Below, one piece after another: positions 1 to 11,523 of a stretch of 11,523 bases of DNA. Source of the stretch: a virus. The translations under genes and the position numbers were made by a program. The notes below the pieces were generated by a model. That model was not told the origin of the DNA. It was given only the letters and a program-made list of their open reading frames with translations, and did no database searches. The stretch lies in the UHGV virus genome UHGV-0861165. One strand, given 5' to 3'. The first letter of the stretch is position 1, and each line of letters begins with the position of its first letter.

Positions 1-2748
1 ATTGAGCATGGACCAGATGCTGTCCTGACTTTACCCGAGGGTAATGCCAGCGCAGGACTCCCGTCTTCCGTTCGCTACAATGCCGACTCCGACGAATTTG
101 AGGGCTTCTATGAAAATGGTGGATGGTTGCCGCTGGGTGGCGGTGGTATCCGCTGGGAAGTCCTTCCGCATGCCTCTACGGCAACGCTCACTGAAGGGCG
201 AGGCTATCTCATTAATAATACCACAGGGGCATCTACAGTGGTTCTCCCTTCCCCTACGCGTATTGGGGATTCTGTTACTATTTGTGATGCTTATGGGAAA
301 TTTGCCACTTACCCATTGACTGTGTCTCCTTCTGGAAATAATTTGTATGGCTCCACTGAAGACATGGCTATAACAACTGATAACGTATCAGCAACGTTCA
401 CTTGGTCTGGACCTGAACAAGGTTGGGTTATCACATCCGGTGTCGGTCTTGGCCAAGGTCGTGTCTACAGTCGTGAAATCTTTACAAAAATTTTGGCGTC
501 TGAAACAAGTGCTGTCGCTCTCAATACTCCACCAACAATCGTGGACGTGTATGCTGACGGAAAACGTCTTGCGGAATCCAAATATTCACTAGATGGGAAT
601 GTAATCACTTTCAGTCCTTCTTTGCCAGCCAACACAGAACTTCAGGTGATTGAATATACTCCTATTCAATTGGGTAATAGCGGTGGTTCTGGTTCTTCTA
701 CGATTACCTGGGTCTATAATGGGGGTTCAGCGATTGGCGGTGAAACCGAAATCACTTTGGACGTCGTTGTTGATGATGTTCCGGCCATTGATATAAACGG
801 AAGTCGCCAGTATAAAAATCTGGGATTCACATTCGATCCATTAACCAGTAAAATCTATCTTGCACAAGAACTGGAACCAGAGGATGAAGTTGTTGTAATT
901 ATCAATGGAACACCAAACATCTATAATCAAATTGATCATACTTTGCGGGAAGTTGCTCGTGCTACTAACGTTAAAGACAGTGAAGTAATTCTTAGTTCTG
1001 ACACTACTCAGTCCCTTAATGGTAAGAAGATTATTTACTCTGTTAGTGAGCAGAAGGCATATAGTTTACCTACTCTACCGTCCAATGTATTTATTGAATC
1101 TGTTGAAAGTGGGAAATTAACATATAGTCCTGGCTCAATTAAGGTAGATCTACTCCCATTACCTAATGACTCTGCTGTAACTGAGCAAGCAATTCTCAAC
1201 CAGTTGTCTGCAATTGAAGGTGAATCCCTTATTGGAACAGTTACCTATGTAACCCTGCGAGAGTACACAGGCTCAGCTACACGTGTTAAGTGTATCGGTA
1301 GAAGTGTAGAGGGGGATGGTGGTGAGGGGGACTTCTATTTAGTACCTGGTGATTCTACTTCAGTAGATGATGATGGGGTAATTATTGTTGATGGTTCCGG
1401 CCGTCGTTGGAAACGTTCCTATTCTGGCCCAATTTCTGCCTCTTGGTTCGGTGTAAGAGATGGTACTGACGTCACCACTACACTACAAAATGCAGTTAGT
1501 CGGGGTGGTGGACAAATCTTTGTACAGGACGGTCAGTACACACTTACTGCTCCCATCGTTGCAAATTTTACTGGTGCATCTTTCCCAATTATGGGAAGAA
1601 AAAGTAAGCGTTTTGATTTCATTGGTTCATCCATGGCGAACACCACTTTTAATACTAATGGTAATGAAGCGTTTAGTTTTACCGGTACTGATGGTTCTGT
1701 AGCTGGTCAGGGTGTACATAGTGGTGCACGTATTAGTGACTTCAGCGTCTATGGCACAAATAATACAGGCATTGGTGTACGTTTGGTTGGTGCTGCATAC
1801 CTCAAAGTACATGACCTCCAAATTAAACGTACTAATATCGCTATGCGTATTTCTGGTGTACTCTCAAGTGATATAAAACGAATCAATGCTCAATATAACA
1901 ACCATGGTATGTACATCACCAGTGCTTCTAACAGTACAGTCAATGCTATGCGTATTAGTGGGATGTTTGGTGCTAATAGTAAATGGGGAATTGAAGGTGA
2001 AGTAGGTACTAACGTATACATTGAAGATTCTAATTTTGAGGGTAATGGTACAGATGGGGATGAACTGTCTGGTGCTATTTACTTACGAGTTGTAGAACCT
2101 TTGAGCACCATTAACATTAGTGGGTACTTTGAGGCTAACGTTGGGCGAGCAGATATACTGATAGATAACCGAACCAGCTCTCCTTTGGTTGTAAACCTCC
2201 GTGGTTGCGTATTTAATCGTGGTGGTATGCGTGGTGGGTCTAATCTTGGTATTGGTGCAAAGTATAATGTTGAGACACGCTCTACTGGCGGTGGTCCAAT
2301 CATCCTTAATCTTAATGGTTGTGTATTCTTTACACAGACGGGTTTTGGATATGTACCTAGTGCAGATTCTCCATATATACAACCAGCACCATACTTAACT
2401 GTTAATGGGGAAGATACTTGTTACTTTAGTGAATCTACTAGTCGTGGTGAGACTGGGAACCGTGGTATGACATTAGGTATTTCTATGAAAGCTGATGGAA
2501 CCATGGCCAATAAACCACCTTTCTTAACCTCAACTCGTGTTTCTGCTGGTGTATACACCATCACACACAATACTAGATTCGGGACGGATATTGATCATTT
2601 CCAGGCAGTGGCTACGTCTAAGGCCAGTGGTTTTACTGTATCTTATGTGCAGAAGGTTAACTTACAGGCATTACGCATCGTTACATTAAATGCAGCAGGT
2701 TCGCCTGCTGATACTGATTTTGATGTTATAGTCACTTCTCGTCGTTAA
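1..2748 (+). CDS. Tail spike protein, long form, 5'-partial: N-terminal tandem small beta-domains (gp10-like by recollection), internal docking motif, then right-handed parallel beta-helix depolymerase-type domain
   Basis: Frame 1 has no stop from position 1 to TAA at 2746-2748. The ORF-track start at 127 is a TTG inside this open frame, so the gene begins upstream of the window. The translation shows periodic beta-helix-like repeats rich in G/N/S/T (e.g. GIGVRLVGAAYLKVHDLQIKRTNIAMRISG, NVYIEDSNFEGNG). It is paralogous to ORF3 in the docking motif (REVARATNVKDSEVIL...QKAYSLPTLP) and the pre-helix neck motif. Confidence 0.85.
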   Translation: MEHGPDAVLTLPEGNASAGLPSSVRYNADSDEFEGFYENGGWLPLGGGGIRWEVLPHASTATLTEGRGYLINNTTGASTVVLPSPTRIGDSVTICDAYGKFATYPLTVSPSGNNLYGSTEDMAITTDNVSATFTWSGPEQGWVITSGVGLGQGRVYSREIFTKILASETSAVALNTPPTIVDVYADGKRLAESKYSLDGNVITFSPSLPANTELQVIEYTPIQLGNSGGSGSSTITWVYNGGSAIGGETEITLDVVVDDVPAIDINGSRQYKNLGFTFDPLTSKIYLAQELEPEDEVVVIINGTPNIYNQIDHTLREVARATNVKDSEVILSSDTTQSLNGKKIIYSVSEQKAYSLPTLPSNVFIESVESGKLTYSPGSIKVDLLPLPNDSAVTEQAILNQLSAIEGESLIGTVTYVTLREYTGSATRVKCIGRSVEGDGGEGDFYLVPGDSTSVDDDGVIIVDGSGRRWKRSYSGPISASWFGVRDGTDVTTTLQNAVSRGGGQIFVQDGQYTLTAPIVANFTGASFPIMGRKSKRFDFIGSSMANTTFNTNGNEAFSFTGTDGSVAGQGVHSGARISDFSVYGTNNTGIGVRLVGAAYLKVHDLQIKRTNIAMRISGVLSSDIKRINAQYNNHGMYITSASNSTVNAMRISGMFGANSKWGIEGEVGTNVYIEDSNFEGNGTDGDELSGAIYLRVVEPLSTINISGYFEANVGRADILIDNRTSSPLVVNLRGCVFNRGGMRGGSNLGIGAKYNVETRSTGGGPIILNLNGCVFFTQTGFGYVPSADSPYIQPAPYLTVNGEDTCYFSESTSRGETGNRGMTLGISMKADGTMANKPPFLTSTRVSAGVYTITHNTRFGTDIDHFQAVATSKASGFTVSYVQKVNLQALRIVTLNAAGSPADTDFDVIVTSRR

Positions 2749-2754
2749 CTGATA

Positions 2755-2775
2755 CCCCTCCTCGGAGGGGGTTTC
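2755..2775 (+). terminator. Terminator-like GC hairpin (CCCCTC / GAGGGG stem, short loop) followed by TTTCT
   Basis: Perfect inverted repeat CCCCTC(2755-2760)...GAGGGG(2765-2770) with a T-rich 3' flank, 7 nt after the ORF1 stop. The T-tract is short, so it may be a partial terminator or an RNA-stability element. Confidence 0.55.
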
Positions 2776-2880
2776 TAGAAAAACAATGAGGTACATATGA
2801 ACGGATTATTCTTACAAGGTGGTAAAGGTTCAACCGGGATCTTAACCAATAAACAAGCAATAGCTCGGCATTTCGGTGTC
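2776..2880 (+). repeat. Junction cassette copy A: CTAGAAAAACAA-GAGGT-ATATGAACG plus conserved 5' coding segment of the short tail spike
   Basis: By eye, near-identical at nucleotide level to 8103-8209 (TAGAAAAACAAtGAGGTacATATGAACGgatTaTTCTtACAAGGTGGTAAAGG... versus TAGAAAAACAAaGAGGTttATATGAACGaaaTgTTCTcACAAGGTGGTAAAGG...). Includes the RBS (GAGG) and the ATG at 2797. Confidence 0.7.
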
Positions 2881-5301
2881 AAAGAAGACGAAGTCGTTTA
2901 TTTCACTGTCGGTATTGATCTCAGTGGATTTAAAGTAATTTATGATGAGTCTACCCAACGGGCTTATTCTCTTCCTTCAGGTATTGTTTCAGGAACGACT
3001 GCGATAAGCCTTAATTCTGCTGGGGTATTAGTCCATTCTGCTGGTAATGTGGATTTAGGTGCACTAGCTGTTACCCGGGAAGAGTATGTAACTTTACCTG
3101 GTTCATTCGAGACGGGTGTAACCGTTAATGCCAAGAATGAGTTAGTTGTCTTTGCGAATGGCAAGTATCGTTGGGATGGGGCATTGCCTAAAGTGGTTGA
3201 TGCAGCCTCATCCCCCGAAACCAGTGGTGGTATTGCTTCAGGTGCTTGGGTAGGTGTGGTTTCTGCTCTCCTAACAACAGCCAGCGGTACTGGGCTTGTA
3301 GGTCACAAAGGTGCTAACTTTAGTGACACCACTGCCTACCTTTACCTATCCTGGCGTAATGGTGATATTACTGCATTCGGGGGTGTGTACGATGACGCCT
3401 CAGCTGGTGATCTAAATAAAGCAGCCTTTGCTACTATGCAGGATACTTTTGGGGGTGTACGTATAAACCTCATGGGTAAAGCAGTTTACCTACCAAACTC
3501 TATGGAGTTAGAGGTAGGGAGTCTGGAAATCTGGGGTGGTGGTAATATTTTCGGTGGTTCTGGATACATGTTCCGTGCTGGTGACAACGGATTCGTTAAC
3601 ATTAAGGAATTTACCCTACAAAGTATTGATGCAAGTGGTAACGACTTCACTCGCCTTGTTGGTGCACCCTCTAATCGTGTTAACCTCATCCAGTATGTTG
3701 AAGCAGCATATTTCAAAACGATTGGAAGAGTCATCGTATTCGCTGGCAATGGTCGCGCCGGTGGAGACTTTAATCCAGTAGAGACAAGTTACGGCTGTAA
3801 GCAGATTAACTTCCATCACTTTTCATGCGAAGAGCCAGGAGACTATCTCGTTTCTGCCCAGAACTATCCGTTTGATACCTTCAGTGTCACTAAGTTTTAT
3901 GTACATAATATGAAGGGTACGCTCATCAATGCTGGAATTGATAACGATCATGTCTATGAGCGTCAGCTAAACCACGCAATGAAAACCCTCATCGTTTCCG
4001 ACTACACCGTCATGAACGAAGATGATTTCTGGGCTGATGGCGTCTTTACCTATACTACGGTAGCTATCGCTGAAGTTGAGCACCTAGTTCACACCAACGG
4101 TCGCCAACATGGTGTTAAAGTCAAAGAGGCTGGTAATGTAGTCTACGACATCTACAATAATGCATTTAGCGTCCAAGAAGAAAATATCTTTATCAGTGAC
4201 TGTTTCAACTGGAACGACGGGATGCTCATGCCTCACAAGATTAAAGGGGCGTGGAGCTATTCGAGTAAGAATAAGCACTGGGTGTACCGTAAGAGTTATG
4301 TGGTGGCAATGAAAGCTATTCACAGTGGTATTTCAGAAGGAAACGCCAAAGGTTCTTTCTTCTATCCCGAAACGGATGACCTGCACACTAGTGCTGCTTC
4401 TTCTGTCACTGATTGGACGCAACGACAAATCACGATCACTGACTGTTTCATTGAACTGATTAAAGTTAATCAGGCTAACCTTTCACGTCCATTGTTCAAT
4501 GTGCGTTTGGATGGCAACACCTTTGTTACACACGATTCTGGTACTACCCATTTGGTTCAGTTCTCTGCCTATCCCCATAACCTCTATCAGCAGATGACGG
4601 TAACAAATAACCGTATCATAGCTCCGGCTCTTACGTTATCTGCATTGGTAGGCTTCTCCGCAGGTTCTCAGGCTGGTGGAGGAGTATTCCAGGGGGTTGT
4701 CGATATTTCGAACAATACCGTTCGGGCAGCAGCGGCGAATTTGCTGGCAGATTGGTCTGGTGGTCAGAATATCGGAACTGGGTCAGTCATCCGTATCGAC
4801 AATAACGATATGGTTACCACAGGCAACTGCCAGATCTGTAACTCTAATCCGTCCTATGTTGACTCTGTATTTGCTAGAAACAACTATTTGCAGGGCACTG
4901 CGACTGTAGGGATGGGTAAGCTGAACGCATCTGCCTACGCATATGAGACTGTGAATGGGTTTAAGGGGAACAGTCCGATTGTTCTGTTCCAGCAGGGAAT
5001 CCCAACAGCGCAGCAGATTAATAGTCGCTCGTATCGCCTGGAGATTTCTGGAACTAATGGTGAGAAAGTAACCCAAGGTTTCACTATCACTGCTGGCGTC
5101 AGCACGACTTCAATACGCTTCGTGAGTTCCGATGGGAACACGTACACGAAGGTAACTGGAACCGATAATGGCACCTTCGAAATGCAATCCACTTCATCGG
5201 ATGGGTTAAATTTAGAGGTCGTGGTTGCATCTGATGGTGTAACAGTCAGAACAGCGTCGTCTGTGATGCAAAGGTTTGAAGCTCGACTGTATGCTCTGTA
5301 A
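2797..5301 (+). CDS. Tail spike protein, short form (834 aa): N-terminal anchor module shared with ORF4, divergent central and C-terminal receptor-binding/enzymatic region
   Basis: ATG at 2797 preceded by GAGG with a 5-nt spacer; uninterrupted 2505-nt ORF. The first ~155 aa (MNGLFLQGGKGSTGILTNKQAIARHFGVKEDEVVYF...KVIYDESTQRAYSLP...) are clearly homologous to the ORF4 N-terminus. The C-terminus is rich in G/T/S/V beta-strand-like sequence typical of tail spike C-terminal domains. Enzymatic fold not assignable by eye. Confidence 0.85.
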   Translation: MNGLFLQGGKGSTGILTNKQAIARHFGVKEDEVVYFTVGIDLSGFKVIYDESTQRAYSLPSGIVSGTTAISLNSAGVLVHSAGNVDLGALAVTREEYVTLPGSFETGVTVNAKNELVVFANGKYRWDGALPKVVDAASSPETSGGIASGAWVGVVSALLTTASGTGLVGHKGANFSDTTAYLYLSWRNGDITAFGGVYDDASAGDLNKAAFATMQDTFGGVRINLMGKAVYLPNSMELEVGSLEIWGGGNIFGGSGYMFRAGDNGFVNIKEFTLQSIDASGNDFTRLVGAPSNRVNLIQYVEAAYFKTIGRVIVFAGNGRAGGDFNPVETSYGCKQINFHHFSCEEPGDYLVSAQNYPFDTFSVTKFYVHNMKGTLINAGIDNDHVYERQLNHAMKTLIVSDYTVMNEDDFWADGVFTYTTVAIAEVEHLVHTNGRQHGVKVKEAGNVVYDIYNNAFSVQEENIFISDCFNWNDGMLMPHKIKGAWSYSSKNKHWVYRKSYVVAMKAIHSGISEGNAKGSFFYPETDDLHTSAASSVTDWTQRQITITDCFIELIKVNQANLSRPLFNVRLDGNTFVTHDSGTTHLVQFSAYPHNLYQQMTVTNNRIIAPALTLSALVGFSAGSQAGGGVFQGVVDISNNTVRAAAANLLADWSGGQNIGTGSVIRIDNNDMVTTGNCQICNSNPSYVDSVFARNNYLQGTATVGMGKLNASAYAYETVNGFKGNSPIVLFQQGIPTAQQINSRSYRLEISGTNGEKVTQGFTITAGVSTTSIRFVSSDGNTYTKVTGTDNGTFEMQSTSSDGLNLEVVVASDGVTVRTASSVMQRFEARLYAL

Positions 5302-5302
5302 G

Positions 5303-5330
5303 AACAACCCCGCTTCGGCGGGTTCTTGTT
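5303..5330 (+). terminator. Terminator-like hairpin with CCCGC-TTCG-GCGGG core (UUCG-type tetraloop) and T-rich 3' flank
   Basis: CCCGC(5309-5313) TTCG GCGGG(5318-5322), flanked by partially complementary AACAA/TTGTT arms, followed by TTCTTGTT. Lies immediately after the ORF2 stop (5299-5301). Confidence 0.45.
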
Positions 5331-5360
5331 ATACCTTTGTTCATAAATTTATTAGTTCAG

Positions 5361-5368
5361 ACTAAATA
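5361..5368 (+). promoter_or_regulatory. ACTAAATA motif, candidate phage late-promoter-like element (T4 late consensus TATAAATA, 6/8 match)
   Basis: The same octamer recurs at 10350-10357 upstream of ORF5, followed in both cases by a similar leader (ATGGRG-ATC-(2-3 nt)-AAATG). The spacing to the downstream start is 34-36 nt if ORF3 starts at 5405. Confidence 0.3.
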
Positions 5369-5404
5369 CCCCATATTGGCAAATCCTCTATGGGGTATCT
5401 TCAA

Positions 5405-8068
5405 ATGACCAGAAACGTCGAGAGCATCTTTGGAGCGGTCGTAACAGCTCCGCACCAGATTCCATACACTTACACAGCAACGGGCGGAGAGAAGTTTATC
5501 TCCCTCCCTTTCTACCCTGTCACTGGTATAGTCACAATCAACGGTGGTATGCAAGTTCCGTTAGACAACTTTGAAATCGATGGAAATACGTTGAATCTCG
5601 GGTGTGCATTATCCAAAGGTGACGTTGTGTTCTGTCTGTTTGATAAGATTCTGTCTCCAGAAGATTATAAAACTGGGATTCGAATCTATAAGTTTCAGGC
5701 TATAGGAGGTGAAACCGAGTTCACTCCTGATTACACATCCTATGGAGTCCAATCTCTTTATATCGGTGGTGAGTACAAAACACCCGAAATTGAATATTCC
5801 TATGACAGCACGACAGGGAAAGTGACTTTACAAACTGCGCTGACTGCAGGCGTTTGGGTAGTCGCTGAAATGTCTGTTAAACAACCGAATATCAGTCCGT
5901 TGTTTGACCGAAGTATTCAAGAAATCGCCCGTTCAGCTAATGTAAAAGATTCTGAGGTAATTCTTAATACGGATACATCTCAAGTACTCAATAACAAGAA
6001 AGTTATCTTCGATGCAGCTGCTCAGAAAATTTATGGCCTGCCTTCATTACCGACCAATGTCTATATTAGTTCTGTGTCTAATGGTCAGTTAACCTACAGT
6101 CCAGGTAACATTACCGTAGATTTGATGGAAGTTCCTAATTCTGGTGCTAGTCTCAGAGAAGACCTGAGTAAGCCTGATGGTAGCAAGCTCATTGGTTCAT
6201 GCCCCAATATTGCAGTACTGCGAACAATTGAGCCTACCTATGCTGAACAACGCATTTACGTAGAAGCACATACTGAAGGTATGATTGCAACCAATGCAGG
6301 TGATTTAGGTGGCGGGTATTTTGTATATAAACCATCTGTTACATCAGCAGATGACAATGGTATGACTATTGTTACTGCATCCGGCAAGCGTTGGGTACGT
6401 GATTTACGTGGTAGCACCGAAGTTACCCCATCTATGTTTGGTGCGTGGATGGATGCTCCTTATATTGATGGGAGCACTATTCAGGGTACACCTTATCCTA
6501 AAGCACCAAGTATGGGGGCTGCTGACCTGTCTGGTGTGCACAATGATGGGGATGCTTTGCTGGCAACCTACACATATGCTGTAGCTAATGGGTTGAATAT
6601 CAAAATTACTCAACCGATGTACATTGGTGATACACAGATTGATATTAGCAATCAGCGTTGGACTGGTAGATCTCTATCCATTACGGGTCTTGGTCAGAGA
6701 CAAAGTATTATTTATACATCAGGTAAGGGTGGATTCATCTCTACCAGATGGGGACACAATATTACCGTTGGTCGCCTCTCTTTCCGTAATGCTGATTCTG
6801 ATTACGTAGGTAGTCCTCTTGTTATCAGTTCATTCGACTTAAGTAATGGCATCGGTGGTGGTGGTAAAACATTCAATATTCACGATGTGGACTTTTACCA
6901 CTATAAGTTCGCTTTGCCTATGGCTTGCTTTGTCAGTGTTATGACCAATTTGTATGCATATGACTGTACCTATGGTTTTGGTATCAATGGAAGCACTAGT
7001 ACGGATATGTCATCTATTTGGGCACACCATTGTGACATTGGCTTTTTATGGGGAGCTGCCATTAATCGTACTACATACGAGCCAGCCAATAATGAAACAC
7101 CTGTTATGTATGTTGCTACCAGCAACATTGCAGCAGATGGTTGCATTTTACCTCATAAATTTTATGGAGATATTCGTAGCCTTTCCTTCTCTGGCTTTGG
7201 TATTGAAGGGATAAATGGTCCAGTGGCATTAGACTTCTCACAGTTAGCCTCCCCTGCTGCACAAACAACAATCGTATTCAGAGATGTTTCTTGTTGGATT
7301 CAGTCTAAAATGAATACTGGTGTAACTCATTTTATTGAGTTGCCTGCTAATGAGTACCAGGCTGGTAGGATTATTTTTGACAGTGGTTACGTTAACTCTG
7401 ACTATGCTATCAAATTGATGGAGAATACCACTTCTCCAAGTAACCAGTATATTGGGCGTAGTGTTACATTAAATAGTAATTTTGAATTTTTAAAAGTTAG
7501 CGATGGTTCCTACACAATATCTACATATAACCGTGGTAACCTTTACCGGGGCAGGGTATATGGAGAAGATATTGTACAAGGTCGTAACTCGTACACGGGT
7601 ACTACTTTGTCAGCAATCCATTCTAATAGTAATTCCTTCTTCAGAAGTGTTGACCATAAGGAAGCTACTGTACTGGTTCCATGGAACAGGGCTTTAGATA
7701 TATTCCTTTGTGCTGTAGGGGAAGAGACTAAAATTCCGGATGGTTGCTTCGTTGCTGGGCGTGCAGATATCATTCCAGTTAACAAAAATGGTTTGGCTGG
7801 TACTGAATCAGGGGGCAGTATTCTGTTTGGGCTATCCGGTAGCACACAGGAAAATGTAGCCTCTGGTGCAGTCTGGTCTAATATGATTGCTGGTGATAAA
7901 TCTCTTTCCGGGGTAACAGTAACTAAACTGGTACGTGATGGTAAAACATTTGTTAGAATCGCATTGCCTACGGCAAGCCTAACAAATGCAATCGTTCACC
8001 TTTCTGTAACCTACTGTGGTTTTGCACATTACTACGATAAGCGTTGGGAAATAAAACCCTTAAGCTAA
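5405..8068 (+). CDS. Tail spike protein, long form (887 aa from ATG 5405; 892 aa if the in-frame ATG at 5390 is used): N-terminal tandem small beta-domains, docking motif, neck motif, beta-helix depolymerase-type domain
   Basis: Uninterrupted frame to TAA 8066-8068. Start ambiguity: the ATG at 5390 has no SD and sits in the 3' arm of an inverted repeat, whereas the ATG at 5405 has a leader that parallels the ORF5 leader. The protein is paralogous to ORF1 in the docking motif (QEIARSANVKDSEVIL...QKIYGLPSLP) and the neck motif (GGGYFVYKPSVTSADDNGMTIVTASGKRWVRD). Confidence 0.85.
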   Translation: MTRNVESIFGAVVTAPHQIPYTYTATGGEKFISLPFYPVTGIVTINGGMQVPLDNFEIDGNTLNLGCALSKGDVVFCLFDKILSPEDYKTGIRIYKFQAIGGETEFTPDYTSYGVQSLYIGGEYKTPEIEYSYDSTTGKVTLQTALTAGVWVVAEMSVKQPNISPLFDRSIQEIARSANVKDSEVILNTDTSQVLNNKKVIFDAAAQKIYGLPSLPTNVYISSVSNGQLTYSPGNITVDLMEVPNSGASLREDLSKPDGSKLIGSCPNIAVLRTIEPTYAEQRIYVEAHTEGMIATNAGDLGGGYFVYKPSVTSADDNGMTIVTASGKRWVRDLRGSTEVTPSMFGAWMDAPYIDGSTIQGTPYPKAPSMGAADLSGVHNDGDALLATYTYAVANGLNIKITQPMYIGDTQIDISNQRWTGRSLSITGLGQRQSIIYTSGKGGFISTRWGHNITVGRLSFRNADSDYVGSPLVISSFDLSNGIGGGGKTFNIHDVDFYHYKFALPMACFVSVMTNLYAYDCTYGFGINGSTSTDMSSIWAHHCDIGFLWGAAINRTTYEPANNETPVMYVATSNIAADGCILPHKFYGDIRSLSFSGFGIEGINGPVALDFSQLASPAAQTTIVFRDVSCWIQSKMNTGVTHFIELPANEYQAGRIIFDSGYVNSDYAIKLMENTTSPSNQYIGRSVTLNSNFEFLKVSDGSYTISTYNRGNLYRGRVYGEDIVQGRNSYTGTTLSAIHSNSNSFFRSVDHKEATVLVPWNRALDIFLCAVGEETKIPDGCFVAGRADIIPVNKNGLAGTESGGSILFGLSGSTQENVASGAVWSNMIAGDKSLSGVTVTKLVRDGKTFVRIALPTASLTNAIVHLSVTYCGFAHYYDKRWEIKPLS

Positions 8069-8078
8069 TTAACTACCC

Positions 8079-8102
8079 CCACCCCCTTTATGGGGGTGGT
8101 TT
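8079..8102 (+). terminator. Terminator-like hairpin CCACCCCC-TTTAT-GGGGGTGG followed by TTT
   Basis: Perfect 8-bp inverted repeat (8079-8086 / 8092-8099) with a 5-nt loop and a TTT 3' tail, 10 nt after the ORF3 stop. Confidence 0.6.
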
Positions 8103-8209
8103 ACTAGAAAAACAAAGAGGTTTATATGAACGAAATGTTCTCACAAGGTGGTAAAGGCTCCACTGGTATTCTTACCAATAAGCAAGCCATTGCCCGTAAG
8201 TTTGGTGTT
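8103..8209 (+). repeat. Junction cassette copy B (see 2776-2880)
   Basis: Nucleotide-level similarity to copy A spans the leader, RBS, ATG (8126) and the first ~80 nt of coding sequence. Confidence 0.7.
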
Positions 8210-10297
8210 AAGCAATCTGAGGTTGTTTATGCCAAATCAGGACAGTCCTTGTCTGGTTATAAAGTAATCTACGATAAGGTCACTCAGCGCTCCTATGCAC
8301 TGCCTTCTAACCTGCCTGCTGGCGCTACCATCACCAGCCTGACAGACGGCATTCTCGTACACAATACGGGCACCGTAGACCTGGGTGCTCTGGCTGTACT
8401 GCGCGGGGAGTTCGTTACTCTGGTCGAAAACTTTACGTCTGGATTTACGATTCGTGTCAAAAACGAAGTTGTAAGTGATGGGGTAAATTTGTATCGCTGG
8501 GGTGGTAGTTTACCAAAGACCGTTAATTCTGGTGAAACTTTAGAAAGCACTGGGGGTATGAATACGAATGCGTGGATTGGCGTTGTATCGCTTAATAACT
8601 CATTTTTGAGTGTAAATGCTCTAAGGGCGTCAGAAAACTTAAATAAAAATATACCATTGTTTCTTTCAAGTTATTATGAAGGTATTGATGGCGGCGGCGG
8701 GTCTTTCTACGTAGATACCAACGACACTACGTCATCAGATAACAATGGTACAGTATTTGTTAACGCCTCTGGCCAGCGCATAAAACGTATTTCAGATGGT
8801 GTATGTCGTTGGTCAGACTTCGGAATTCTTCCAGGCATGCCGGTAGCGCCTACAAAATCGCAGTGTGAAGCCGTTTGGTCGTGGGGGTTTGCAAATGGGT
8901 GTACTCGTTATGAAACCTTCCAGAAAGGGGAGATGACGTTCACCTTCCCCCTGTTGTTCCAAGTTCCGGCTAACTGGACAGGTGGTGCTGTTAGCTTCAT
9001 TGCAGAAGGGTTGCATAAATTTGCTTATGATTTCAAAAATGGCGCTACAGATGATGTGATTGAGATCCTCCTTAAACTGGAAGATCTGTCAGGTAATACA
9101 CCCATCCATACTGTTTATAATTTTGATAACGTTGGGATGGGACGGTTCCCCGGGAAAAACATCCGATATACCGCACTGCGACACACGAGCGCAAAAAACT
9201 CAATGATCAAGGTTACTGGGAAGAACAACTACGGATATGCCTTGTTCATAGGCGGTAGTGATAACAGCATCGTGTACAATTCAACGTTTTATAACTGCGA
9301 TGGCCAGTTGCTTGTAAATTCTCCAGCAGGCGGTTACGACAGCTTTGGTGATGCAATTTATGTTGGCGCTAAAAATGTGTCTATCCAGAGTCCTGTAATT
9401 GAAACAACACAGGGTGGTAGAGCCGGTATCGTATTTGAAGGGACATGGGTTGAACGTGTTGGTGGTGAGGTAACAAACTGCTTTATTAAGGGATATGACC
9501 GTGGTATTCACATAGAGACTGTAGGTTTCAGGATGGATGCAATTAATATTACTGGAGGCAGGATACAAGATTGCAATACCAGCGTATTGGCATTCAATGG
9601 TGTAACTGATGATATGGGTAGTGATATGTCTGTTATCATCAAGGGGTTAACGTCAAGGCTTGATAGCACAATTTCAGGCCACGCCAATCCGTCTGGTTTT
9701 AGCCTGGGACACCTTATGGTATCTGGAGTTAACACACAAGTAACAACGGAAGGGTGCTCATGGCAGACTCACCAGAACAACATCACCGTTGTGGGTAATG
9801 GGAAATGGGTGAGCAATGGTGACCGCATGTTTGTTAACTCTGGTGGCATCAACCTGCCGTACACTCGTGGGTGCGAGATAAACAATCTGTACGCACCACA
9901 GAACAGAAACGCGTTAAAATCCGCAGGTAATTTAGTCTTTACAAACTCTTATTGGGGAGGGGACATTAACATAACCGGGGGCAATAAAACAATTATTGAT
10001 AACGTCGAGATGTCAAGACAAGGAGGATATGCAAACTGTGGTCGTATCAGTCTGGTTGGCTCCAATAGTGCGATATTGCGTAATATTATATTCCAGTATC
10101 CAGACTCATGGGCAATAGATAATACTCAAACTTGGCAGGTCCCCGTGTGTCCTATCATAGAAAACATCCACGTAAATAGCGTAGAAACAGGAACTGCAAC
10201 ATTACAAAGAAACGCAGAAAGTGGGGCTAATAATCGGTACAGAAGGTCTATTCCTTCATATATATCAAACGGAAGTACATGGACGATAATTAGTTAA
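8126..10297 (+). CDS. Tail spike protein, short form (723 aa): shared N-terminal anchor module, neck motif, right-handed beta-helix (pectate-lyase-like) depolymerase-type domain
   Basis: ATG at 8126 preceded by GAGG (8117-8120); uninterrupted 2172-nt ORF. The N-terminal ~150 aa are homologous to ORF2. Typical beta-helix repeats are visible (GGSDNSIVYNSTFYNCDGQLLVNS, AIYVGAKNVSIQSPVIETTQGGRAGIVFEG, TNCFIKGYDRGIHIET). Confidence 0.88.
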   Translation: MNEMFSQGGKGSTGILTNKQAIARKFGVKQSEVVYAKSGQSLSGYKVIYDKVTQRSYALPSNLPAGATITSLTDGILVHNTGTVDLGALAVLRGEFVTLVENFTSGFTIRVKNEVVSDGVNLYRWGGSLPKTVNSGETLESTGGMNTNAWIGVVSLNNSFLSVNALRASENLNKNIPLFLSSYYEGIDGGGGSFYVDTNDTTSSDNNGTVFVNASGQRIKRISDGVCRWSDFGILPGMPVAPTKSQCEAVWSWGFANGCTRYETFQKGEMTFTFPLLFQVPANWTGGAVSFIAEGLHKFAYDFKNGATDDVIEILLKLEDLSGNTPIHTVYNFDNVGMGRFPGKNIRYTALRHTSAKNSMIKVTGKNNYGYALFIGGSDNSIVYNSTFYNCDGQLLVNSPAGGYDSFGDAIYVGAKNVSIQSPVIETTQGGRAGIVFEGTWVERVGGEVTNCFIKGYDRGIHIETVGFRMDAINITGGRIQDCNTSVLAFNGVTDDMGSDMSVIIKGLTSRLDSTISGHANPSGFSLGHLMVSGVNTQVTTEGCSWQTHQNNITVVGNGKWVSNGDRMFVNSGGINLPYTRGCEINNLYAPQNRNALKSAGNLVFTNSYWGGDINITGGNKTIIDNVEMSRQGGYANCGRISLVGSNSAILRNIIFQYPDSWAIDNTQTWQVPVCPIIENIHVNSVETGTATLQRNAESGANNRYRRSIPSYISNGSTWTIIS

Positions 10298-10302
10298 CAA
10301 AG

Positions 10303-10330
10303 CCCCTCTTCGGAGGGGTTTCTTCTTTCT
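10303..10330 (+). terminator. Rho-independent-type terminator: CCCCTC-TTCG-GAGGGG hairpin followed by TTTCTTCTTTCT
   Basis: Perfect 6-bp GC stem with a TTCG tetraloop and a pyrimidine/T-rich tail, 5 nt after the ORF4 stop. The stem sequence is nearly the same as the hairpin at 2755-2775. Confidence 0.65.
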
Positions 10331-10339
10331 ATTCCTCGG

Positions 10340-10367
10340 TTGGTTGTATACTAAATATCTCTATAAT
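10340..10367 (+). promoter_or_regulatory. Candidate promoter upstream of ORF5: TTGGTT (weak -35) - 16 nt - TATAAT (consensus -10); overlaps the ACTAAATA motif at 10350-10357
   Basis: A perfect TATAAT hexamer at 10362-10367 lies ~24 nt upstream of ATG 10392, with RBS GGAG at 10381-10384. The -35 is poor (3/6). The alternative reading is a phage late-type promoter centred on ACTAAATA. Confidence 0.3.
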
Positions 10368-10391
10368 GGCACCTATCGATGGAGCATCAAA

Positions 10392-11523
10392 ATGCAAGAA
10401 ATGAACCTCAACCGCCGCCCATATTGGGATGACTGGAATCCAGAGAAGCGTTTTTCGCGCATCCTATTCCGTCCGGCACCTATCAAAGTTCAGACGCGTG
10501 AACTGAACCAGATGCAGACCATCTTCCAGGATCAACTGGAGAAACTTGGCAACCATCTGTTCAAAGACGGTTCAATGGTTATCCCCGGCGGCCTGACGAT
10601 CACCAACACTGCTGTGTCCATGAAGTTCACTCTGGCTGGTGGTAGTGAGTTCACTGATCTGGAAGGTATCTCCGAACTCTATGTTCTGGGCAAGGACAAC
10701 AATGCGAAAGCACGCGTCCTGTCCTTGGAACGTTACCCAGCTGAGCCGGATACAATGTATGCCATCTTAGAGATGACTGAGAGTGGTAGTTCAGACGGTT
10801 TCGAAGCTGGCGACAATCTATACTTCAACACCTATGACGTGAACGATAACTTCATCCGTGTCGGCTATGGCGTGGCCGATACTGTTGGCGGTTCGATTGT
10901 CGCTCGCATGACAAAGGGTGTTTATTTCGTTCGTGGTATGTTCCTGGATGTTGAACCAACCACTTTGATCGTAGACAACGCATCGAACTCTACATCTCAC
11001 CGCATTGGCTTCAAAGTTACAGAAACAATCGTGACCGAAGCAGAAGATGAAAGTCTGTTCTCCAATGCTCAGGGTACTCCGAACTCTAAAGCCCCTGGTG
11101 CGCATCGCCTGCGCGTCGACCTCGTGTTGTCTCGCTACGGTTATGATGAAGAAGTGGCCGACTTCGTTGAACTGGCGAAGGTGAAAGACGGTCGCATTCA
11201 GTCCATGGTCACCCAGTCAACGTACAACATCCTCGAAGACGCCATGGCTCAGCGTACCTATGAGACCAATGGTGACTACAACGTCTCTACTCACCAGATC
11301 GACCTGCGTGAACATCTGAAAGAGAACAACAACGGCGGCGTTTACACTCCGGCTGAAGGTGGTGATGAAAGCAAATTCGTGGCGGTTATGAAGCCAGGCA
11401 TTTCCTACGTTCGTGGTCGTCGTATCGAAAACCTCGGCGAAGAGCTGGTCATAATTGACAAAGCCCGTGACACTGATATCCTGAACAACAACCCTGTGGC
11501 TGTTTCGACTGGCAACTATCTGG
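10392..11523 (+). CDS. Conserved phage structural protein of unknown function (possibly baseplate- or tail-associated), 3'-partial
   Basis: ATG at 10392 with a good RBS (GGAG, 7-nt spacer); the frame is open to the window end, so it is absent from the ORF track. It looks visibly GC-richer, with more host-like codon choice, than the spike genes, and it lacks beta-helix repeats and the spike N-terminal modules. The function is inferred only from its position next to the spike cluster. Confidence 0.75.
   Translation, partial: MQEMNLNRRPYWDDWNPEKRFSRILFRPAPIKVQTRELNQMQTIFQDQLEKLGNHLFKDGSMVIPGGLTITNTAVSMKFTLAGGSEFTDLEGISELYVLGKDNNAKARVLSLERYPAEPDTMYAILEMTESGSSDGFEAGDNLYFNTYDVNDNFIRVGYGVADTVGGSIVARMTKGVYFVRGMFLDVEPTTLIVDNASNSTSHRIGFKVTETIVTEAEDESLFSNAQGTPNSKAPGAHRLRVDLVLSRYGYDEEVADFVELAKVKDGRIQSMVTQSTYNILEDAMAQRTYETNGDYNVSTHQIDLREHLKENNNGGVYTPAEGGDESKFVAVMKPGISYVRGRRIENLGEELVIIDKARDTDILNNNPVAVSTGNYL

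What the first reader, a model, noticed from the sequence alone, without database searches (positions are those of the whole stretch)
5369..5407. Inverted repeat over the first in-frame ATG of ORF3, and start-site ambiguity
CCCCATA (5369-5375) and TATGGGG (5389-5395) form a perfect 7-bp inverted repeat with a 13-nt loop, and the 3' arm contains the ATG at 5390. That ATG has no Shine-Dalgarno sequence; the preceding sequence cctc is anti-SD-like. The second in-frame ATG at 5405 sits in a leader resembling that of ORF5 (ctATGGGGtATCttcAAATG versus cgATGGAGcATCaaAATG). The real start is therefore probably 5405, with the hairpin a leader structure or possible translational regulator.
Basis: seen in the sequence. 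Interest (0 to 1): 0.4.

Follow-up and report, generated by a model that had tools for sequence, protein, structure and literature searches.

The report
Late-promoter hairpin masking tailspike ribosome site
The inverted repeat is real and is the start region of a phage tailspike gene: its left arm is the gene's own late promoter and its right arm is the ribosome-binding site. The hairpin can therefore probably form, and block translation, only on RNA that starts further upstream, a trick already known from phage T4.

Summary
The repeat exists and is longer than reported: 10 perfect bp (ATACCCCATA 5366-5375 / TATGGGGTAT 5389-5398), with a 13-nt loop. The window is an Ackermannviridae tailspike cluster and ORF3 is the TSP2 orthologue.

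The true start is ATG 5405:
- GGGGT (5392-5396) is its Shine-Dalgarno (-6.0 kcal/mol, against -1.5 for ATG 5390).
- In relatives the upstream ATG is out of frame or hits a stop after three codons.

With T4-type geometry, transcription should start near 5374. Late mRNA would then lack the 5' arm, and only read-through RNA could fold and bury the SD. This is the arrangement of T4 gene e and I-TevI.

The same promoter-arm/SD-arm hairpin, with different complementary sequences, occurs at about half the late promoters of phage Ag3. These include TSP4, gp6, gp14 and, tellingly, the endolysin.

No transcription start has been mapped, the arms at this site never vary, and read-through is inferred.

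Verdict: a new member of a known kind, apparently undescribed for this family. Interest is moderate.

The parts
5309..5322 (+). Intrinsic terminator after ORF2: CCCGC-TTCG-GCGGG followed by TTCTTGTTAT. Outer pairing AAGAAC/GTTCTT at 5300-5327.
   Evidence: Terminator scan. Inverted repeat I3. ORF2 ends at 5301.
5362..5375 (+). T4-type late promoter, CTAAATA (5362-5368) with the extended consensus CCCCATA. It is the exact Ackermannviridae motif CTAAATAcCcc.
   Evidence: It is the only exact match in the window. The motif is quoted for the family in PMC7283392. The LIMEstone1 and SPTD1 records annotate a late promoter at or next to the equivalent motif. Homology to distant genera begins exactly here, and upstream flanks cannot be aligned. 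Relatives encode gp55-like sigma, gp33 and gp45.
5373..5376 (+). Predicted late transcription start (inferred, not mapped).
   Evidence: In phage Aeh1 CTAAATA begins at -12 from the putative start (PMC1524935). T4 late 5' ends map just downstream of TATAAATA (PMC3014915). With C5362 = -12, +1 falls at 5374.
5366..5375 (+). 5' arm of the hairpin, ATACCCCATA. It covers the last 3 nt of the promoter element plus the stretch up to the predicted start.
5376..5388 (+). Loop TTGGCAAATCCTC with an inner GG/CC helix (5378-79 / 5385-86). The apical CAAAT varies between genera.
   Evidence: Fold. Loop variants CAAAT, CGAT, TAACG, TCAT and TTAT.
5389..5398 (+). 3' arm of the hairpin, TATGGGGTAT. It contains the decoy ATG (5390-5392) and the Shine-Dalgarno GGGGT (5392-5396).
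   Evidence: P(unpaired) of 5392-5396 is 0.00 in RNAs that include the 5' arm.
5405..8068 (+). ORF3, the TSP2-type tailspike, read from its real start codon.
   Evidence: Residues 6-337 of the 5390 reading match PDB 6w4q from its residue 1, E = 1e-141. Annotated starts in Ag3, CBA120, AV101, Marshall, RC-2014, LIMEstone1 and IME250.
10351..10394 (+). Second late-promoter leader of the window: CTAAATATCTC (10351-10361), SD GGAG, and ORF5 ATG at 10392. It has only a weak hairpin.
   Evidence: (p about 0.2).

Best explanation
Positions 5362-5407 are the promoter and translation-initiation module of the TSP2-type tailspike gene.

Shown from sequence and comparison:
- CTAAATACCCC(ATA) is a T4-type late promoter element.
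- GGGGT (5392-5396) is the SD of the true start, ATG 5405.
- ATG 5390 is not a start. It exists because the 3' arm must complement the CAT of the promoter-proximal CCCCATA.
- The 10-bp pairing between the promoter-proximal sequence and the SD region is a selected sense-strand RNA structure.

Inferred mechanism: RNA polymerase with the phage late sigma starts near 5374. Late mRNA therefore lacks the 5' arm and its SD is available. Transcripts that begin upstream and read through the ORF2 terminator (5309-5322) carry both arms. They fold into a hairpin of about -16 kcal/mol that buries the SD, so ORF3 is not translated from them.

This is the promoter-in-the-stem gating known for T4 gene e, I-TevI, segB and Aeh1 mobE. 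Ackermannviridae appear to use it at many late genes.
For: Start codon and SD:
- SD/anti-SD duplex is -6.0 kcal/mol for 5405 (spacing 7) and -1.5 for 5390.
- The upstream ATG is out of frame or followed by a stop in LIMEstone1, L152, L093 and the CBA120 TSP3 leader.
- PDB 6w4q starts at MTRNVE.

Promoter:
- The motif is exact and is quoted for the family.
- The gp55/gp33/gp45 homologues are present in Ag3.
- Conservation across about 30 genomes of 4 genera starts sharply at C5362.
- The site sits just after a terminator.

Geometry:
- CTAAATA lies at -12 in Aeh1.
- Mapped T4 late 5' ends lie inside the gene e stem.

Structure:
- P(unpaired SD) is 0.00 in read-through RNAs.
- MFE is -15.7 kcal/mol with the 5' arm and -3.7 without it.

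Selection for pairing:
- 7 of 14 Ag3 CTAAATA leaders fold with p <= 0.006 against shuffles; summed z is -9 to -11.
- Each pairs 'ATA plus the next 5-10 nt' with its own SD, using different complementary sequences: ATACCCCTAGATG/CATTTAGGGGTAT (TSP4), ATACCTTCA/TGAGGGTAT (gp14), ATACCCCCAT/ATGGGGGTAT (orf174), ATCTTCAaCACC/GGTGaTGGAGAT (gp6) and ATACCCCATAC/GTGTGGGGTAT.
- Loop lengths range from 4 to 23 nt.
- These hairpins persist across genera with wobble-compatible changes.
- Every non-Watson-Crick pair in the stems is G.U on the sense strand.

Strongest analogy:
- The family's endolysin gene has TTAAATA plus ATACCUUCGCA/UGCGGAGGUAU masking its SD. It lies about 1.2 kb downstream of a predicted early promoter on the same strand. 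This is exactly the T4 lysozyme case.

Read-through is plausible in this cluster:
- ORF2 and ORF4 have no promoter of their own and sit behind terminator-like hairpins.
Against: - No transcription start has been mapped in any Ackermannviridae, and none was found in the literature searched. The key step, that late mRNA lacks the 5' arm, rests on analogy.
- Both arms of this particular hairpin are invariant in every relative, so there is no covariation at the site itself. The promoter explains the conservation of the 5' arm, and the SD partly explains that of the 3' arm.
- Formal pair counts on orthologues show only one-sided wobble changes. There are no double compensatory changes, and the shuffle control is uninformative. 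The MAFFT-based counts are unreliable.
- The gene upstream of ORF3 is itself a late tailspike gene. It is unclear why read-through translation would need silencing here. The gp6 leader has a hairpin even though its upstream neighbour is divergent.
- When 35 nt of coding sequence are included, the truncated RNA is predicted to keep the SD partly paired, with P(unpaired) 0.01-0.58. That alternative pairing is not conserved.
- A crude genome-wide control gives only modest enrichment: 6/22 against 16/170, p = 0.025.
Confidence: 0.6

Rival explanations
1. The hairpin is part of the gene's own late mRNA. It would act there as a 5'-terminal stabiliser or as a translational attenuator or thermosensor of the tailspike leader.
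For: - In most paralogues the stem starts at the same position, A5 of CTAAATA. This would suit a defined 5' end.
- The hairpin is stable.
- No start site has been mapped, so this cannot be excluded.
Against: - It needs a start at or upstream of 5366. That lies inside or before the only conserved promoter element, and nothing upstream of C5362 is conserved between genera.
- It contradicts the -12 geometry reported for CTAAATA and TATAAATA promoters.
- A -16 kcal/mol stem over the SD on the main late mRNA of an abundant virion protein would be counterproductive.
Confidence: 0.15
2. The complementarity has no function. Two independently constrained motifs, the promoter CTAAATACCCCATA and an SD context TATGGGGTAT, happen to be complementary. 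ACCCC resembles the anti-SD, so it would pair with any G-rich SD.
For: - The arms never vary at this site.
- A 10-bp IR is not rare at window scale.
- Hairpin-free late promoters share CTAAATACCCCATA.
Against: - Paralogous leaders with other promoter-proximal sequences carry matching, different SD flanks.
- 7 of 14 leaders beat shuffles at p <= 0.006.
- GGGGTAT-type SDs occur in 4 of 6 CCCC promoters and 0 of 8 others in Ag3 (hand-computed Fisher p = 0.015).
- The pairing extends 3-6 bp beyond the CCCC/GGGG core at every site.
Confidence: 0.1
3. The repeat is a double-stranded DNA operator. A dimeric phage protein would bind the palindrome over the late promoter and repress or activate it, as I-TevI does at its operator.
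For: - The repeat overlaps a promoter.
- T4 I-TevI represses its own late promoter through an overlapping operator.
Against: - Arm spacing ranges from 4 to 23 nt among paralogues, and the arm sequences differ while staying complementary.
- The imperfections are all G.U on the sense strand. They would be A.C mismatches on the other strand and are meaningless for a duplex site.
Confidence: 0.05
4. The hairpin acts on upstream-initiated RNA for stability or processing rather than translation. It would be a 3'-protective or processing structure for the ORF1-ORF2 transcript.
For: It lies 45 nt after the ORF2 terminator. Stable hairpins can block 3' exonucleases.
Against: - A terminator hairpin already lies upstream.
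- The stem is not followed by a U tract (CTTCAAATG).
- In every paralogue the 3' arm coincides with the SD, which a stability element would not require.
- The stems are too short for RNase III.
Confidence: 0.05
5. ATG 5390 is the real start, giving an MGYLQ- extension, as annotated in the SPTD1, Menlow and PhaxI records.
For: It is in frame in this window and in most Kuttervirus orthologues, and three GenBank records use it.
Against: - It has no SD.
- It is buried in the stem.
- It is out of frame or stopped in LIMEstone1, L152, L093 and the TSP3 leader.
Confidence: 0.03

Closest known systems
T4 gene e (lysozyme) leader: an RBS-sequestering hairpin with late promoters in its 5' strand
   Same: A TATAAATA-type late promoter lies in the DNA that encodes the 5' strand of a stem, and the 3' strand holds the SD. 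Longer transcripts fold and are translated about 100-fold less, while late transcripts lack the 5' strand (PMC3014915). The geometry here is the same, and the Ackermannviridae endolysin has the same design.
   Different: - The gene here is a tailspike, not a lysis gene.
- Only the SD and a decoy AUG are in the stem; the real AUG lies 6 nt beyond it.
- The promoter variant is CTAAATA.
- Nothing has been tested experimentally.
T4 I-TevI / I-TevII / I-TevIII, segB and Aeh1 mobE hairpins
   Same: A late (or middle) promoter is positioned so that its transcripts cannot form the RBS-masking structure (PMC2988022). Aeh1 uses the same CTAAATA promoter variant.
   Different: Those cases regulate selfish endonuclease genes embedded in early or middle operons. 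Here the targets are core virion genes and about half of the late promoters.
Ackermannviridae ('Viunalikevirus') late motif CTAAATAcCcc / T4-family gp55 late promoters
   Same: The match is exact at 5362-5372. The site lies upstream of a structural gene, with no conserved -35 region.
   Different: The published motif was described as a promoter only. The papers read do not mention its pairing with the downstream SD. The paper thought (from memory) to have first described the motif (Adriaenssens et al. 2012, doi 10.1007/s00705-012-1360-5) could not be read.
Intrinsic (rho-independent) terminator
   Same: It is a G+C-containing stem-loop in an intergenic region.
   Different: There is no U tract after the stem, and the loop is 13 nt. 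A genuine terminator lies 45 nt upstream.

Membership tests
T4-type (gp55-dependent) late promoter | TATAAATA-like -10 element, here the CTAAATA variant | tested here: met
   Exact CTAAATACCCC at 5362-5372, the only exact copy in the window. The same variant is reported for Aeh1 and for Ackermannviridae.
T4-type (gp55-dependent) late promoter | The phage encodes gp55-like sigma, gp33 and the gp45 clamp | tested here: inconclusive
   These genes are not in this 11.5-kb window. They are present in the close relative Ag3 (orf00122, orf00076, orf00165) and are reported for CBA120.
T4-type (gp55-dependent) late promoter | No requirement for upstream (-35) sequence; placed closely upstream of a late or structural gene | tested here: met
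   Flanks upstream of C5362 cannot be aligned across 12 distinct variants, while the stretch from 5362 to the ATG is nearly invariant. The gene is a tailspike.
T4-type (gp55-dependent) late promoter | Transcription starts about 6 nt after the element, late in infection and dependent on replication | not testable with these tools
   No start-site data were found for the family.
Promoter-in-stem RBS-sequestering hairpin (T4 e / I-TevI type) | A stable stem that includes the SD and/or the AUG | tested here: met
   -16.3 kcal/mol, z = -3.7. SD 5392-5396 has P(unpaired) 0.00 in RNAs that contain the 5' arm.
Promoter-in-stem RBS-sequestering hairpin (T4 e / I-TevI type) | The late promoter lies within the 5' strand, so late transcripts lack it | tested here: met
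   This is met by position only. The motif is at 5362-5368, the arm at 5366-5375 and the predicted +1 near 5374. MFE drops from -15.7 to -3.7 kcal/mol on truncation. The actual start is unmapped.
Promoter-in-stem RBS-sequestering hairpin (T4 e / I-TevI type) | Co-directional transcripts from upstream traverse the site | tested here: inconclusive
   ORF2 ends 60 nt upstream on the same strand, with a terminator at 5309-5322. ORF2 and ORF4 lack promoters, which implies read-through in this cluster. No RNA data exist.
Promoter-in-stem RBS-sequestering hairpin (T4 e / I-TevI type) | Translation differs between long and short transcripts | not testable with these tools
   This needs reporter fusions or toeprinting.
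Conserved structured RNA (any Rfam family) | A match to a curated covariance model | tested here: not met
   There were only sub-threshold chance hits, 16.7 and 15 bits against gathering scores of 56 and 64.
Intrinsic terminator | A G+C-rich stem, a short loop and a following U tract | tested here: not met
   The scan did not call it. The loop is 13 nt and the tail is CTTCAAAT.
Upstream ORF / N-terminal extension from ATG 5390 | The reading frame from the first ATG is conserved, with an SD | tested here: not met
   The distance to the real ATG is 13, 14, 15 or 16 nt in relatives, with TAA as 4th codon in several. There is no SD.

The most novel reading that the evidence does not exclude
Ackermannviridae may use 'transcript-origin gating' across the genome. 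At roughly half of their late promoters the promoter DNA doubles as the anti-SD strand of a hairpin. The genes affected include the tailspikes TSP2/TSP3/TSP4, baseplate gp6, neck gp14, two further virion proteins and the endolysin. Each of these genes would then be translated only from RNA born at its own promoter and never from read-through RNA. This would imply heavy early, middle or inter-operon read-through across the structural modules of phages that lack a MotA/AsiA-type middle system. It would also imply a level of control used far more widely than the handful of cases known in T4.
Probability: 0.3. Interest if true: 0.55.

Novelty: new member of a known kind. Interest (0 to 1): 0.4.

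Why it matters
- Annotation: ATG 5405 is the start. Several GenBank records of related phages (SPTD1, Menlow, PhaxI) use the decoy ATG.
- Engineering: Ackermannviridae tailspikes are being swapped to retarget host range, and their late promoter is used to drive reporters (PMC9965104). A cassette that keeps the 3' arm but places it behind another transcript would be translationally silent. One that removes the 5' arm would lose the promoter.
- Biology: the finding gives a concrete, testable model of post-transcriptional timing in a phage family whose transcription is essentially unstudied. It links the tailspike leader to the classic T4 lysozyme mechanism through the family's own endolysin.

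Tried and rejected
- Known RNA family: the Rfam scan of 5200-5500 gave nothing above noise.
- Sigma-70 promoter or terminator at the site: none was called.
- Significance of the repeat on its own: rejected. The window-level count is not significant, and CTAAATACCCC with up to 2 mismatches is not enriched in the window (7 found, 3.4 expected).
- Orthologous covariation at the TSP2 hairpin: impossible, because the arms are invariant.
- RNAalifold on the TSP4 and gp6 leaders: MAFFT misplaced the gaps, so those counts are unreliable. A gap-free endolysin alignment showed only one-sided wobble changes, and the shuffle control was uninformative.
- Distant gp6 homologues outside the family have no TAAATA leader and do not help.
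- Start-site or transcriptome data for the family: none found.
- N-terminal peptides in the Ag3 supplement: none.
- Papers not held: Gibb and Edgell on Aeh1 mobE, and Adriaenssens et al. 2012.
- Correlation between hairpins and a co-directional upstream gene: checked by eye in Ag3 and not clean. The gp6 leader has a hairpin but a divergent neighbour.
Full report
**What is there**

The window is a tailspike gene cluster of an Ackermannviridae phage.
- A 401-nt query around the finding matches 269 phage records from Kuttervirus, Agtrevirus, Limestonevirus and Taipeivirus. The nearest are Escherichia phages AV101 and PH4, at about 97%.
- No record covers more than 42% of the whole window at high identity, so the gene combination is mosaic.
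- ORF3 is the TSP2 orthologue. Read from 5390, its residues 6-337 align to PDB 6w4q from that chain's residue 1, with E = 1e-141.
- ORF2 and ORF4 carry the Tail_spike_N domain. ORF5, whose ATG is at 10392, carries DUF4815.

**The observation**

- It is a perfect 10-bp inverted repeat, ATACCCCATA 5366-5375 / TATGGGGTAT 5389-5398, with a 13-nt loop.
- As RNA it folds at -16.3 kcal/mol, z = -3.7.
- On its own this is not beyond chance. The window has two perfect repeats of at least 10 bp against 0.41 expected, and 10% of shuffles do as well.

**The start codon**

ATG 5405 is the start, with high confidence.
- ATG 5405 has an SD/anti-SD duplex of -6.0 kcal/mol (GGGGU, spacing 7). This is like the other ORFs of the window (-5.6 to -6.9). 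ATG 5390 has -1.5.
- Phage Marshall's annotators marked the same GGGG as the ribosome-binding site.
- The two ATGs are 15 nt apart in most orthologues. They are 16 nt apart in LIMEstone1 (ATG GGG TAT TAA), 14 nt in L152, and 13 nt with a TAA in L093 and in the paralogous CBA120 TSP3 leader.
- Three GenBank records (SPTD1, Menlow, PhaxI) nevertheless annotate the upstream ATG.

The 5' arm sits inside CTAAATACCCC (5362-5372), which is the only exact copy in the window.
- This is the regulatory motif CTAAATAcCcc quoted for Ackermannviridae (PMC7283392).
- CTAAATA is also the late-promoter variant of the T4-like phage Aeh1, where it begins at -12 from the putative start (PMC1524935).
- Relatives encode the T4 late apparatus: a gp55-like sigma, gp33 and the gp45 clamp.
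- The LIMEstone1 and SPTD1 records annotate a late promoter at or next to the equivalent motif.
- Across about 30 TSP2 leaders from four genera, everything from the C of CTAAATA to the ATG is almost invariant. The flank just upstream cannot be aligned. Variation is confined to the apical loop and the SD-ATG spacer.
- With C5362 at -12, transcription should start near 5374. The late mRNA would then contain at most the last 1-3 nt of the 5' arm.

**Is the pairing selected?**

The arms never vary at this site, so the evidence comes from paralogues.
- In phage Ag3, 7 of 14 CTAAATA leaders fold far better than shuffles (each p <= 0.006; summed z -9 to -11).
- In each of the seven, the stem joins 'ATA of the promoter plus the next 5-10 nt' to that gene's own SD. 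The sequences differ but are mutually complementary, and the loops range from 4 to 23 nt:
  - TSP4-like: ATACCCCTAGATG / CATTTAGGGGTAT
  - gp14: ATACCTTCA / TGAGGGTAT
  - orf174: ATACCCCCAT / ATGGGGGTAT
  - gp6: ATCTTCAaCACC / GGTGaTGGAGAT
  - a virion protein gene: ATACCCCATAC / GTGTGGGGTAT
- Removing the first 8 nt, which mimics a start at +1, collapses the structures. For TSP2 the MFE goes from -15.7 to -3.7 kcal/mol.
- The hairpins persist in other genera with changes that keep pairing. Examples are U.G to C-G in gp6, and G.U to G-C plus U-A to C-G in the TSP4 leader of Taipeivirus.
- Every non-Watson-Crick stem pair is G.U on the sense strand. Together with the variable spacing, this argues for a sense-strand RNA structure and against a duplex DNA operator.

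Caveats on this evidence:
- A gap-free formal count on the endolysin leader found 98.5% of cells paired, but only one-sided changes, and the shuffle control was uninformative.
- The MAFFT-based counts for TSP4 and gp6 are unreliable.
- A crude genome-wide control gives modest enrichment: 6/22 against 16/170, p = 0.025.

**Mechanism**

The arrangement is that of T4 gene e.
- In T4, late promoters lie in the DNA that encodes the 5' strand of an RBS-masking stem. Long early transcripts are translated about 100-fold less, and late transcripts lack the 5' strand (PMC3014915).
- The same design is known for I-TevI, I-TevII, I-TevIII, segB and Aeh1 mobE (PMC2988022).
- The most telling parallel appeared during the control scan. 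The Ackermannviridae endolysin gene has TTAAATA followed by ATACCUUCGCA / UGCGGAGGUAU, about -16 kcal/mol, masking its SD. This is conserved in 16 genomes.
- In Ag3 the endolysin gene lies about 1.2 kb downstream of a predicted early promoter on the same strand.
- In the window, RNAs that include the 5' arm have SD 5392-5396 fully paired.
- Read-through is plausible in this cluster. ORF2 and ORF4 have no promoter of their own and lie behind terminator-like hairpins.

**What is shown and what is inferred**

Shown:
- the repeat;
- the SD and the true start;
- the exact promoter motif and its overlap with the 5' arm;
- conservation of the module;
- recurrence of the design with different sequences.

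Inferred:
- the position of the transcription start;
- the existence of read-through RNA;
- the effect on translation.

Points against the model:
- No start site has been mapped for the family.
- The gene upstream is itself late, so the benefit of silencing read-through at this gene is unclear.
- The gp6 leader has a hairpin despite a divergent upstream neighbour.
- A non-conserved alternative pairing partly covers the SD in silico in the truncated RNA.

**Comparison and novelty**

- There is no Rfam match.
- The element is not a terminator and not a conserved upstream ORF.
- The genome papers for Ag3, CBA120, LIMEstone and EspM4VN, and a 2024 family review, do not mention hairpins at these promoters. 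The paper I recall (from memory) as the first description of the motif, Adriaenssens et al. 2012, could not be read.
- I file the element as a new member of a known kind, the T4-type promoter-in-stem translational gate. The start-codon question is a routine annotation point.
- The broader reading is that about half the late genes of the family are gated this way. That is the most novel possibility the evidence leaves open.

Noticed in passing
L133:7236-7280 (Ag3 record 57236-57280, minus strand); L291-L306 positions about 110-153: The Ackermannviridae endolysin gene has a TTAAATA late-promoter motif. Its last 3 nt and the next 8 nt (ATACCTTCGCA) pair with TGCGGAGGTAT, which contains the SD (about -16 kcal/mol). 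This is conserved in 16 genomes with wobble-compatible variants and directly mirrors T4 gene e.
   Followed up: yes
Ag3 record (L132-L134): 142142(+), 134755(-), 130869(-), 114680(-), 99169(-), 137958(+); CBA120 126074(-): The same promoter-arm/SD-arm hairpin occurs at the leaders of a virion protein gene, gp6 baseplate wedge, the TSP4-like gene, gp14 neck, orf174 and a small ORF in the tRNA region. In Kuttervirus it also occurs at TSP3. Other late promoters (gp18, gp22, gp48, orf207, orf227) lack it.
   Followed up: yes
window 2755-2799 and 8079-8128: ORF2 and ORF4 are preceded by near-duplicate modules and no CTAAATA: a G+C hairpin (CCCCTC-CTCG-GAGGGG; CCACCCCC-TTTAT-GGGGGTGG), then TTT(C/A)CTAGAAAAACAA(T/A)GAGGT, then ATGAAC. 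Both proteins carry Tail_spike_N. They must be transcribed by read-through from the promoters of ORF1 and ORF3.
   Followed up: partly
window 10340-10394: The ORF5 leader has CTAAATATCTC (10351) overlapping a perfect TATAAT (10362-10367) with a weak TTGGTT -35. The Ag3 authors listed the equivalent site as an early promoter (Porf206). An upstream ATG at 10381 is 11 nt from the real ATG at 10392, so it is out of frame.
   Followed up: partly
L002 (SPTD1), L005 (Menlow), L008 (PhaxI): These GenBank records annotate the decoy upstream ATG as the TSP2 start. Seven other records use the second ATG. Menlow even annotates a 3-nt 'RBS' before the decoy.
   Followed up: yes
L136 (LIMEstone1 record 112806 and 112032, minus strand): LIMEstone1 keeps a copy of the gp14 hairpin leader plus the first codons (MATSK...) upstream of two inserted ORFs. 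The functional gp14 now has a different, hairpin-free CTAAATA leader. This looks like the scar of an insertion that split promoter from gene.
   Followed up: no
Ag3 record 142142-142242 (L134:42142-42242): In Ag3 the hairpin leader and start of the MK(P/T)FL virion protein gene are followed only 100 nt later by the next CTAAATA promoter, and no ORF is annotated between them. CBA120 and LIMEstone1 have a full 450-nt gene there. This is probably a deletion remnant.
   Followed up: no
Ag3 record 60851 (minus strand; L133:about 10812-10851): CTAAATA sits in the loop of a terminator-like hairpin (ATCCCCC-TAAATAC-AGGGGGAT plus a T run), upstream of a 'starvation-inducible regulator' gene. It is either a chance motif or a promoter hidden in a terminator loop.
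   Followed up: no
window 5385-5394 with 5430-5440: In RNAs truncated at the predicted start, ViennaRNA pairs CCUCUAUGGG with the coding-region CUUUGGAGCGG (-11.8 kcal/mol), which partly covers the SD. The partner sequence is not conserved in Kuttervirus orthologues, so this is probably not meaningful.
   Followed up: partly
window 1-11523: No phage record in the collection covers more than 42% of the window at megablast identity. The N-terminal and leader modules are conserved, while the receptor-binding parts are a new combination.
   Followed up: no
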